From assembly GCF_024223415.1 (NCBI RefSeq), contig NZ_CP100500.1: a DNA stretch of 64,000 bases. One strand, written 5' to 3'. Under the pieces are notes generated by a model that was given only the letters and a program-made list of their open reading frames with translations, did no database searches and had not been told where the DNA came from. Each line of letters starts with the position of its first letter. Positions within the stretch are counted from its first letter, which is position 1. The position numbers were made by a program, and so were the translations under genes. This document shows, piece after piece, positions 39,236 to 42,547 of the stretch. This DNA is from Escherichia coli. GTDB taxonomy: Bacteria > Pseudomonadota > Gammaproteobacteria > Enterobacterales > Enterobacteriaceae.

Positions 39236-39441
39236 AACTAACCTCGGGATGAGTAAGGAGACTTATCGGCAACGACGCCGGTATGTTTCTAATATGTTAC
39301 ATATTATCGGGGACATTGTTCCAGACAACAATCTGTTTTATTCAATAGGTATGATAGTCGCAGGCTTTGGTACGAAATCATGGCGAACCGCGCGGACTTC
39401 GGGTAATCTGCGCGCTTCGCGCAGCGCTGGTGGAGAAAAGC

Positions 39442-40526: not shown

Positions 40527-41216
40527 TTACTCACTCTCTGCCGGTAATACTGGCATCCAGTCAATCGGCGTCTCGCCATGTTGTTCCAGCCACTGATTTG
40601 CCAGCACAAAATGGTTGCAGCCAAAGAATCCACGATGCGCCGAAAGCGGCGACGGATGCGGTGCTTTCAGTACATGATGGCGTTGCTTATCTATAATCGC
40701 CCCTTTCTTTTGCGCATGAGATCCCCACAACAAAAACACCACGCCTTCGCGATGCTGGTTAATCAGGCTGATCACTTTATCGGTGAAGGTTTCCCAGCCG
40801 AGGCTGGCGTGGGAATGCGCCTGACCTGCGCGTACCGTCAACACAGTATTGAGTAGCAGAACGCCCTGACGCGCCCAGCTTTCAAGATAACCATGATTAG
40901 GGCGGGTGAAGCCCGGAATAGTATTTTCGAGCTCTTTATACATATTCAGCAGTGACGGAGGAGTGGCGATTCCGGGGCGAACGGAAAATGCCAGCCCATG
41001 CGCCTGTCCCGGTCCGTGATAAGGATCCTGGCCGAGAATCACCACTTTAACGTCACCCAACTCGGTAAAGCGGAACGCGTTAAAGACATCTTTTTGTGGT
41101 GGATAGATAGTGACGCCGGACTGCCGCTCGCTGGCGACGGTCTGAAGGGTATTAAGAAAATAGGGTTGCTGCTTCTCTTCAGCCAGCACGTCATGCCAGG
41201 TTAATTTGTTAGCCAT
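40527..41216 (-). CDS. ung: Uracil-DNA glycosylase
   Basis: 229-aa [27 protein letters not shown]... with GQDPYH motif. Confidence 0.97.
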
Positions 41217-41346
41217 CTCGCTCTCCTGCGAATCTTCAATCCGCCTAGCTTAACTGCTTCTTTCTACAGAACAAAATCATGCTCATTTTTTAGACTTAAA
41301 CGAGTGCAAAAAAATGTAAATTGGTAAAATTTCACACCCGCATAAG

Positions 41347-41413
41347 TTGATGTAAAACAATAAAATCCATTTACGACCACAATCGATGTGTGGTTTCTAT
41401 TGATTTAAATCAA
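41347..41413 (+). promoter_or_regulatory. Two FNR-type boxes upstream of grcA
   Basis: TTGATGTAAAACAA (41347-41360) and TTGATTTAAATCAA (41400-41413; exact TTGAT-N4-ATCAA); consistent with the known anaerobic induction of yfiD/grcA. Confidence 0.6.
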
Positions 41414-41520
41414 AGAATCAAGGGTGTTTGAGGAGTATATATACACTCAAGCAACAATGGTTTTACCAATTGGCCGCGACAGGCTGAACAAATCAAATAA
41501 TTTTGCCGGGGAGGCATCAC

Positions 41521-41904
41521 ATGATTACAGGTATCCAGATTACTAAAGCCGCTAACGACGATCTGCTGAACTCTTTCTGGCTGCTGGACAGCGAAAAAGG
41601 CGAAGCGCGTTGCATCGTTGCAAAAGCAGGTTATGCAGAAGATGAAGTGGTTGCAGTAAGCAAACTGGGTGACATTGAATACCGTGAAGTTCCAGTAGAA
41701 GTGAAACCAGAAGTTCGCGTTGAAGGTGGTCAACACCTGAACGTAAACGTTCTGCGTCGTGAAACTCTGGAAGATGCAGTTAAGCATCCGGAAAAATATC
41801 CGCAGCTGACCATCCGTGTATCCGGATATGCAGTTCGCTTTAACTCTCTGACTCCGGAACAGCAGCGCGACGTTATTGCTCGTACCTTTACTGAAAGCCT
41901 GTAA
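41521..41904 (+). CDS. grcA: Autonomous glycyl radical cofactor GrcA (YfiD)
   Basis: [23 protein letters not shown]... ending ...[31 protein letters not shown] (glycyl radical motif). Confidence 0.95.
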
Positions 41905-41925
41905 GGCTTAAGTAGCAAGTTACTA

Positions 41926-41957
41926 AGCGGAAGAGGGCGACTTCTTCCGCTTTTTTT
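41926..41957 (+). terminator. grcA terminator
   Basis: AGCGGAAGA-GGGCGAC-TCTTCCGCT followed by TTTTTTT. Confidence 0.6.
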
Positions 41958-41959
41958 CG

Positions 41960-42547
41960 TTAATAGAAAATGCGTACCGCGCAATAGACCAGCAACAGTG
42001 CAAGCACGATATTCAACTGGCGACCATACTGGCGAAACAATCGCTGAAACAGATGCCCCGCCAGCGCCCAGCACACATTGCCAAACGTCCCAATCATCGC
42101 CAGCAAAACGCTGACGCCAACTACCCAGCTTAACGCCTGTGTTTGCGGCAGAACAAATGTCGACAGTGCCGTAACACCGTACAAAATGATTTTGACGTTC
42201 ACAAACTGCAAAGCAAAGCTGGCCCAAAAACTGATTGGTTTTGTCTGAAGCCCGTCTTCCTTTGTTGGACTGGTAGCGATTTTCCACGCCAGCCAGACAA
42301 TATATGCCGCCCCCGCCCAACTCAACAGATGCACAGCTGCCGGGTCGATAACAGCCAGTGAAAACGAAATGCCCGCACACAGCAACATGACGATTAAAAA
42401 TCCCAGACTCATCCCTGCCAGCACGCGGGTACTCTGATGAAATCCGTGCGTTGTGGCTGAGCTAAGGGCGAGAATATTGTTCGGTCCTGGCGTCATGGCG
42501 GTAATCAGGGTGTAAGTCCAAAAAGCACTTAAAAGGGTCGGTGTCAC
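41960..42547 (-). CDS. eamB: LysE/RhtB-family exporter EamB (YfiK)
   Basis: 195-aa polytopic membrane ORF MTPTLLSAFWTYTLITAMTPGPNNILALSSA... Confidence 0.93.
   Translation of the reverse strand: MTPTLLSAFWTYTLITAMTPGPNNILALSSATTHGFHQSTRVLAGMSLGFLIVMLLCAGISFSLAVIDPAAVHLLSWAGAAYIVWLAWKIATSPTKEDGLQTKPISFWASFALQFVNVKIILYGVTALSTFVLPQTQALSWVVGVSVLLAMIGTFGNVCWALAGHLFQRLFRQYGRQLNIVLALLLVYCAVRIFY

What the first reader, a model, noticed from the sequence alone, without database searches (positions are those of the whole stretch)
41347..41413. Two FNR-type boxes upstream of grcA
One exact FNR consensus (TTGATTTAAATCAA) and one near-consensus box lie about 53 bp apart upstream of grcA, consistent with its known anaerobic induction; listed for completeness.
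Basis: partly seen in the sequence, partly recalled or inferred. Interest (0 to 1): 0.15.

Follow-up and report, generated by a model that had tools for sequence, protein, structure and literature searches.

The report
Known tandem FNR sites of grcA (yfiD)
The two boxes are the already mapped FNR binding sites at -40.5 and -93.5 of the E. coli grcA (yfiD) promoter, a textbook oxygen-responsive switch, so the finding is real but ordinary.

Summary
TTGATGTAAAACAA lies at 41347-41360 (one mismatch to TTGAT-N4-ATCAA). TTGATTTAAATCAA lies at 41400-41413 and is the only exact match in the 64-kb window. Their centres are 53 bp apart, in the ung/grcA intergenic region of an E. coli chromosome.

Published K-12 data place the yfiD transcription start at a base that maps to window 41447. 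The box centres then fall at exactly -40.5 and -93.5, the positions of the mapped yfiD FNR sites (Green 1998; Marshall 2001).

K-12 ChIP-seq lists these same two 14-mers under one FNR peak. A published promoter mutant alters exactly the upstream box and raises anaerobic output.

The interpretation needs one correction. Only the -40.5 box activates. The weaker -93.5 box dampens expression under full anaerobiosis, which the literature links to a microaerobic peak.

I add three observations:
- Both boxes are invariant in 10 diverse E. coli alleles, while 11 of 39 spacer columns vary.
- Among the 80 species loci, 62 (Enterobacterales genera) carry such a pair. Their spacing is 53 bp (58) or 52 bp (4), while the distance to the ATG ranges from 102.5 to 159.5 nt.
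- The upstream box's defect (A at position 11) is kept in 90% of these loci.

Verdict: already known, low interest.

The parts
41347..41360 (.). FNR II: the upstream, sub-optimal FNR box TTGATGTAAAACAA, centred at -93.5. It is the down-regulating site.
   Evidence: 1 mismatch. Listed as a predicted FNR site under the ChIP peak, PWM score 13.87 against 17.25 for box I. The published yfiD-m mutant changes exactly this box to TTtATGTAAAAaAA and is much stronger anaerobically. Invariant in 10 E. coli alleles. Present at 52-53 bp from box I in 62 species loci.
41361..41399 (.). 39-bp spacer between the boxes. Its length is fixed and its sequence is free.
   Evidence: 11 of 39 columns are polymorphic among 10 E. 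coli alleles, with no indels. Mean column identity is 59% across 58 species loci, while spacing stays at 53 bp. It contains a strain-variable inverted repeat at 41375-41395 that was flagged as terminator-like.
41400..41413 (.). FNR I: the exact-consensus FNR box TTGATTTAAATCAA, centred at -40.5. It is the class II activating site.
   Evidence: only exact match in the window. Myers 2013 main table gives yfiD at -40.5 and supplement file 6 lists the 14-mer. The half-site columns that are conserved at 100% are listed. Invariant in E. coli.
41435..41441 (+). -10 region (GTATATA) of the FNR-dependent grcA promoter. There is no recognisable -35.
   Evidence: The position follows from the TSS at 41447. 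The TATAT core is at least 95% conserved across 62 species loci. The consensus sigma-70 scan found no full promoter, as expected for an activator-dependent class II promoter. The K-12 sigma-70 ChIP peak at 2714546 maps to window 41446.
41447..41447 (+). Transcription start (+1) as used in the K-12 literature, giving a 74-nt leader.
   Evidence: Park 2013 supplement: site 2714524-2714555 = TGGTAAAACCATTGTTGCTTGAGTGTATATAT, listed as -10/+22. Its reverse complement is window 41437-41468, so +1 is 41447. This was transferred by sequence identity and not measured in this strain. The exact base may be off by 1-2 nt.
41437..41468 (.). Published predicted ArcA binding region (-10 to +22).
   Evidence: Park 2013 supplement files 1, 4 and 7: ArcA ChIP peak at ung/yfiD and the predicted site sequence. 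The sequence is identical in the window.
41456..41470 (.). PdhR-like palindrome AATGGTTTTACCAAT, centred near +17.
   Evidence: It has 1 mismatch to ATTGGT-N3-ACCAAT; the consensus is from my memory. It is strongly conserved across 62 species loci. PdhR repression of yfiD is stated in PMC3181329, citing Wyborn 2002. That the published PdhR site is this box is my inference.
41510..41514 (+). Shine-Dalgarno sequence GGAGG.
   Evidence: Sequence; conserved.
41521..41904 (+). grcA (yfiD) coding sequence: 127 aa, autonomous glycyl radical cofactor.
   Evidence: ORF. RefSeq annotation of identical DNA. 82-99% identical proteins in 80 species.
41925..41960 (+). Intrinsic terminator of grcA: a 12-bp stem followed by a T run.

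Best explanation
These are the two mapped FNR sites of the E. coli grcA (yfiD) promoter.

When oxygen falls, [4Fe-4S]-FNR dimers bind first to the exact-consensus box centred at -40.5. That box overlaps the missing -35 element, and FNR there activates RNA polymerase in the class II manner. As active FNR rises further under full anaerobiosis, the weaker one-mismatch box at -93.5 is also filled. FNR bound there damps the activation. The result is that grcA, the spare glycyl-radical domain that rescues oxygen-damaged pyruvate formate-lyase, peaks under microaerobic conditions.

ArcA (-10 to +22) and PdhR (about +17) add redox and pyruvate inputs.

What is shown here: the positions, the identity with the published sites, the conservation and the spacing. 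What is taken from the literature on K-12: FNR binding, the activating and damping roles, and the TSS. What is inferred: that affinity ordering (exact box before imperfect box) sets the order of filling. The contact by which the upstream FNR represses is not known.
For: - Boxes and spacing.
- Locus identity: the same intergenic DNA is annotated ung/grcA in 5425 of 5426 complete E. coli genomes, and both boxes are identical to MG1655.
- Published sites: yfiD at -40.5, with an FNR ChIP-seq peak at 2,714,605. Both 14-mers are listed at 2714579 and 2714632, with a sigma-70 peak at 2714546.
- TSS: the ArcA site listed as -10/+22 fixes +1 at window 41447. The centres 41406.5 and 41353.5 are then -40.5 and -93.5.
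- FNR dependence: yfiD is scored as activated and is reduced to 0.11 in the FNR expression table.
[quoted passage not shown] The yfiD-m promoter (G and C of box II mutated; primers) and yfiD-P1 (box II deleted) are much stronger than wild type anaerobically, and wild type is higher under microaerobic conditions.
- Conservation: spacing is 53 bp in 58 and 52 bp in 4 of 62 species loci, while the box I to ATG distance ranges from 102.5 to 159.5 nt. Box II position 11 is A in 90% of these loci. Boxes are invariant and the spacer is polymorphic within E. coli.
Against:
- The primary papers (Green 1998, Marshall 2001, Wyborn 2002, Barnard 2003) could not be read. Their content is taken from titles, citing papers and supplements.
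- The TSS falls on a T, which is unusual for a start base, so it may be 1-2 nt off.
- Binding and regulation were measured in K-12, not in this strain. The window's spacer allele differs from K-12 at 5 spacer positions.
- Park 2013 scores the ArcA effect on yfiD as negative, whereas Wyborn 2002 reported it as positive. The ArcA part of the model is unsettled.
Confidence: 0.95

Rival explanations
1. Both boxes act as co-activators. On this view the upstream site adds to anaerobic induction rather than limiting it, which is the simplest reading of the first reader's note.
For: Tandem activator sites can act synergistically at other promoters. FNR placed at many upstream positions still allows induction. 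The sites lie about five helical turns apart, on the same face of the DNA.
Against: Removing or mutating the upstream box raises anaerobic promoter output. Citing papers state that the -93.5 site down-regulates. Upstream FNR between -85 and -95 represses.
Confidence: 0.03
2. The upstream box mainly serves the divergent ung gene, or another regulator such as ArcA or IHF, and only incidentally resembles an FNR site.
For: The box lies 137 bp upstream of the ung start codon, in a shared intergenic region. Myers 2013 flags IHF ChIP-chip signal at both sites. Park 2013 cites Wyborn 2002 as suggesting that ArcA activates yfiD by disrupting FNR binding.
Against: The spacing to box I is fixed at 52-53 bp in 62 species, which ties it to the grcA promoter geometry. 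Mutating it changes grcA promoter output on a plasmid that lacks ung. A role at ung as well is not excluded.
Confidence: 0.02
3. The boxes are chance matches or CRP sites rather than FNR sites.
For: An exact box occurs by chance in 15 of 100 shuffles of the window. FNR and CRP sites are related palindromes.
Against: Both half-sites read TTGA, not the GTGA of CRP sites (established knowledge). The boxes lie under an FNR ChIP-seq peak and are conserved in position and sequence across Enterobacterales.
Confidence: 0.005

Closest known systems
E. coli K-12 yfiD (grcA) promoter with FNR I at -40.5 and FNR II at -93.5 (Green, Baldwin & Richardson 1998; Marshall et al. 2001)
   Same: It is the same locus. 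Both 14-mers, the 53-bp spacing, the -10 region, the leader and the coding sequence match. The box sequences are identical to MG1655 and to the sites listed by Myers 2013.
   Different: There are seven substitutions relative to MG1655. Five are in the 39-bp spacer and one lies 4 bp downstream of box I. None touches a box or changes the spacing. This exact 128-bp promoter allele is rare: 6 of 5425 genomes are at least 99% identical.
Standard class II FNR-activated promoters with a single site at -41.5, for example narG, dmsA and nirB
   Same: A TTGAT-N4-ATCAA dimer site overlaps the -35 position, and there is no -35 hexamer.
   Different: The site is centred at -40.5 rather than -41.5, and a second FNR site lies upstream. 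That arrangement is otherwise described for FNR-repressed promoters.
Synthetic tandem-FNR melR-derived promoters (Barnard, Green & Busby 2003)
   Same: An upstream FNR dimer between -85 and -95 represses a downstream class II FNR activation.
   Different: Those are engineered promoters with two consensus sites. Here the arrangement is natural, and the upstream site is conserved as a weaker site.

Membership tests
FNR-dependent class II promoter | An inverted repeat matching TTGAT-N4-ATCAA | tested here: met
   Exact match at 41400-41413.
FNR-dependent class II promoter | Site centred near -41.5 relative to a mapped transcription start | tested here: met
   The TSS transferred from the K-12 data (ArcA site listed as -10/+22) is window 41447, so the centre at 41406.5 is -40.5. 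Myers 2013 lists -40.5. The TSS was not measured in this strain.
FNR-dependent class II promoter | FNR occupancy in vivo and FNR-dependent expression | not testable with these tools
   Published for K-12: a ChIP-seq peak and an 'Activated' call, with an expression ratio of 0.11. The boxes are identical in the window.
yfiD-type tandem FNR architecture (activating site plus down-regulating upstream site) | A second FNR box centred at -93.5, that is 53 bp upstream of the first and within the -85 to -95 repressing zone | tested here: met
   Centre 41353.5 is -93.5. The repressing zone is described.
yfiD-type tandem FNR architecture (activating site plus down-regulating upstream site) | The upstream box is a weaker match than the downstream box | tested here: met
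   It has 1 mismatch against 0. The published PWM scores are 13.87 and 17.25. The defect is conserved in 90% of 62 species loci. Actual binding affinities were not measured.
yfiD-type tandem FNR architecture (activating site plus down-regulating upstream site) | Inactivating the upstream box raises anaerobic expression | not testable with these tools
   Published for K-12 constructs whose primers match this sequence.

The most novel reading that the evidence does not exclude
The geometry appears to be under selection, not only the boxes. The 53-bp spacing is rigid, the upstream box is kept deliberately imperfect across Enterobacterales, and the spacer is unusually polymorphic within E. coli. 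Natural spacer alleles such as the rare one in this window might change DNA bending or IHF/ArcA access. That could tune the oxygen level at which grcA peaks, and would offer a natural allele series for probing the still-unknown mechanism of repression by upstream-bound FNR (one search states that the mechanism is unknown).
Probability: 0.1. Interest if true: 0.3.

Novelty: already known. Interest (0 to 1): 0.07.

Why it matters
The finding has little importance as a discovery, because the promoter has been dissected since 1998 and is already used as an oxygen-responsive part in metabolic engineering. The comparative data collected here are a modest addition. They show a fixed 53-bp spacing, a conserved defect in the upstream box and a free spacer sequence across 62 species. 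These fit the published two-affinity model and could guide work on how upstream FNR represses.

Tried and rejected
- The primary papers were not held: Green 1998, Wyborn 2002, Thomason 2015, Ogasawara 2007 and Barnard 2003. Conway 2014 has no stored supplements. A dRNA-seq literature search found nothing. The TSS was therefore derived indirectly from the Park 2013 supplement.
- The sigma-70 consensus scan found no promoter in 41150-42050. This is expected for an activator-dependent promoter without a -35, so I did not count it as evidence against.
- The terminator-like hairpin at 41375-41395 in the spacer was rejected as a terminator. No + strand gene lies upstream, because ung is divergent, and the stem bases vary between strains.
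- Rfam found no RNA family in the ung-grcA-eamB region.
- The other four one-mismatch FNR hits lie inside coding ORFs and were treated as chance.
- The trxC/yfiF intergenic region, where Myers 2013 lists an FNR peak, has no box with up to 3 mismatches.
- The PdhR-pattern search is not significant on its own at 2 mismatches: 2 hits against 2.52 expected. The box is supported by conservation and the literature, not by that count.

Full report
**What is there.** The window is E. coli chromosome. ung lies on the - strand at 40527-41216 and grcA (formerly yfiD) on the + strand at 41521-41904. grcA is followed by a strong intrinsic terminator at 41925-41960, and then by eamB on the - strand. The 305-bp ung-grcA intergenic region is present once in 5425 of 5426 complete E. 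coli genomes. A search for TTGATNNNNATCAA finds one exact match in the 64 kb, TTGATTTAAATCAA at 41400-41413. Allowing one mismatch adds TTGATGTAAAACAA at 41347-41360.

**Is it more than chance?** The exact box alone is weak evidence: 0.16 are expected, and 15 of 100 shuffles gave at least one. With one mismatch there are 6 hits against 2.53 expected. The other four lie inside long coding ORFs, so the only promoter-region hits are this pair. Conservation settles the matter, as described below.

**Identity with the mapped sites.**
- Myers et al. 2013 (PMC3688515) list yfiD with an FNR ChIP-seq peak at 2,714,605 (U00096.2) and a site at -40.5.
- Their supplement lists two predicted sites under that peak: TTGATTTAAATCAA at 2714579 (score 17.25) and TTGTTTTACATCAA at 2714632 (score 13.87). 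The second is the reverse complement of the window's upstream box. The two are 53 bp apart. The supplement also gives a sigma-70 peak at 2714546.
- The window's boxes are identical to those of MG1655.
- The sites were first described by Green, Baldwin & Richardson 1998 ('FNR occupying a site at -93.5') and Marshall et al. 2001. I could not read these papers and rely on citing papers.

Park et al. 2013 (PMC3798270) give a predicted ArcA site at yfiD, 2714524-2714555, with sequence TGGTAAAACCATTGTTGCTTGAGTGTATATAT. They list its position as -10/+22. Its reverse complement is window 41437-41468, so +1 is window 41447, giving a 74-nt leader. The box centres 41406.5 and 41353.5 are then -40.5 and -93.5 exactly. 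The K-12 sigma-70 peak maps to window 41446. The mapped start is therefore fully compatible with the boxes. One caveat is that +1 falls on a T and may be off by a base or two. It was also not measured in this strain.

**How it works.**
- The downstream box is a class II activating site. It overlaps the -35 position, and the consensus scan finds no -35/-10 promoter here, as expected for an activator-dependent promoter.
- yfiD is FNR-activated in K-12.
- The upstream box is negative. [quoted passage not shown] The upstream site down-regulates even when the downstream site is filled, and FNR placed between -85 and -95 represses in synthetic promoters. The mechanism of this repression is unknown.
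- Wichmann et al. 2023 (PMC10208419) rebuilt the promoter with primers that match this sequence. Their yfiD-m changes the upstream box to TTtATGTAAAAaAA, and their yfiD-P1 starts downstream of it. Both are much stronger than wild type anaerobically. They cite Marshall et al. 2001 for the wild-type promoter being more active under microaerobic conditions than under complete anaerobiosis.
- The literature also reports ArcA (+) and PdhR (-) inputs. The window carries the published ArcA region at 41437-41468 and a PdhR-like palindrome AATGGTTTTACCAAT at 41456-41470.

**New comparative evidence across species.**
- GrcA loci from 80 species were fetched.
- Sixty-two of them, from Enterobacterales genera (Escherichia, Salmonella, Citrobacter, Enterobacter, Klebsiella, Yersinia, Serratia, Erwinia, Pectobacterium, Hafnia, Edwardsiella and others), carry two boxes. 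The spacing is 53 bp in 58 and 52 bp in 4.
- The distance from box I to the ATG takes 21 different values, from 102.5 to 159.5 nt.
- Spacer columns average 59% identity.
- The box I half-sites are 93-100% conserved.
- Box II keeps its defect, A instead of T at position 11, in 90% of the loci. This fits selection for a weaker upstream site.
- A footprint of the alignment shows conserved blocks at both boxes, the TATAT of the -10, the PdhR-like box and the Shine-Dalgarno sequence.

**New comparative evidence within E. coli.** Ten alleles were sampled across the identity range. Both boxes are invariant (0 of 28 columns). By contrast, 11 of 39 spacer columns and 4 of the 22 columns between box I and the -10 vary, and there are no indels between the boxes. 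The sample was chosen by identity over 41337-41464, so it is not random.

**Comparison and novelty.** This is the K-12 yfiD promoter itself, in another strain, so it is already known. The strain's promoter allele is uncommon: 6 of 5425 genomes are at least 99% identical over 128 bp. Every difference from K-12 lies outside the boxes. Interest is low. The most novel reading still open is that the spacer alleles tune the oxygen response, and I give that about 10%.

Noticed in passing
window 41361-41434: There is a polymorphism hot spot inside an otherwise conserved intergenic region. Among 10 E. coli alleles, 11 of 39 spacer columns and 4 of the 22 columns between box I and the -10 vary. Only 2 of the 85 leader columns vary, and none of the 28 box columns. 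The window's own 128-bp promoter allele is rare: 6 of 5425 genomes are at least 99% identical. C at 41397 is seen only in the window among the 10 sampled alleles.
   Followed up: partly
window 41375-41395: The inverted repeat GACCACA-N7-TGTGGTT, followed by T-rich sequence, was flagged as terminator-like. It lies between the two FNR boxes with no + strand gene upstream. Its stem bases differ between strains. It is probably chance.
   Followed up: partly
L046, L056, L060, L065, L070, L077, L082 (Pasteurellaceae grcA loci), 190 nt upstream of the ATG: The predicted architecture differs from that of Enterobacterales. Two FNR-type boxes lie 42-44 bp apart, and the better match is the upstream one. 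They fall at about -47 and -90 relative to a conserved extended -10 (TGATAAAAT). A TTGAA-N3-TTCAA palindrome overlaps the -35 position. The TSS is assumed, not mapped. Several other Pasteurellaceae loci have only the upstream box.
   Followed up: partly
window 41456-41470: The palindrome AATGGTTTTACCAAT is centred near +17 and has one mismatch to the PdhR-type ATTGGT-N3-ACCAAT (consensus from memory). It is among the best conserved blocks of the promoter across 62 species. This fits the published PdhR repression of yfiD.
   Followed up: partly
window 41306-41322: The block GCAAAAAAATGTAAATT, about -141 to -125 from the grcA start and 90-106 nt upstream of the ung ATG, is invariant in the sampled E. 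coli alleles and E. albertii. It is partly conserved across Enterobacterales. It has no assigned function. It could be the ung promoter or a further regulator site.
   Followed up: no
window 41519-41523: An ACA triplet overlaps the A of the grcA ATG (CATCACATG). From memory, the yfiD mRNA was reported to be cut by MazF at an ACA just before the AUG, giving a leaderless mRNA. Papers linking MazF and YfiD appeared but were not read.
   Followed up: no
window 39284-39301 (trxC-yfiF intergenic region): TGTTTCTAATATGTTACA is a TGTT direct repeat with 11-bp period, typical of ArcA sites. It lies where Park 2013's ArcA site at trxC/yfiF (2716706, U00096.2) maps. Myers 2013 also lists an FNR ChIP peak in this region, but there is no FNR box with up to 3 mismatches.
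   Followed up: partly
window 1-32000 compared with L091: The closest fully matching strain at the grcA locus (NCTC10444) carries two IS4 copies, near raiA and clpB. Its coordinates are offset from the window by about 2.9 kb at the Phe leader (window 20335 against locus 17449). The window therefore differs from that strain by insertions or deletions upstream of the rrn operon.
   Followed up: no
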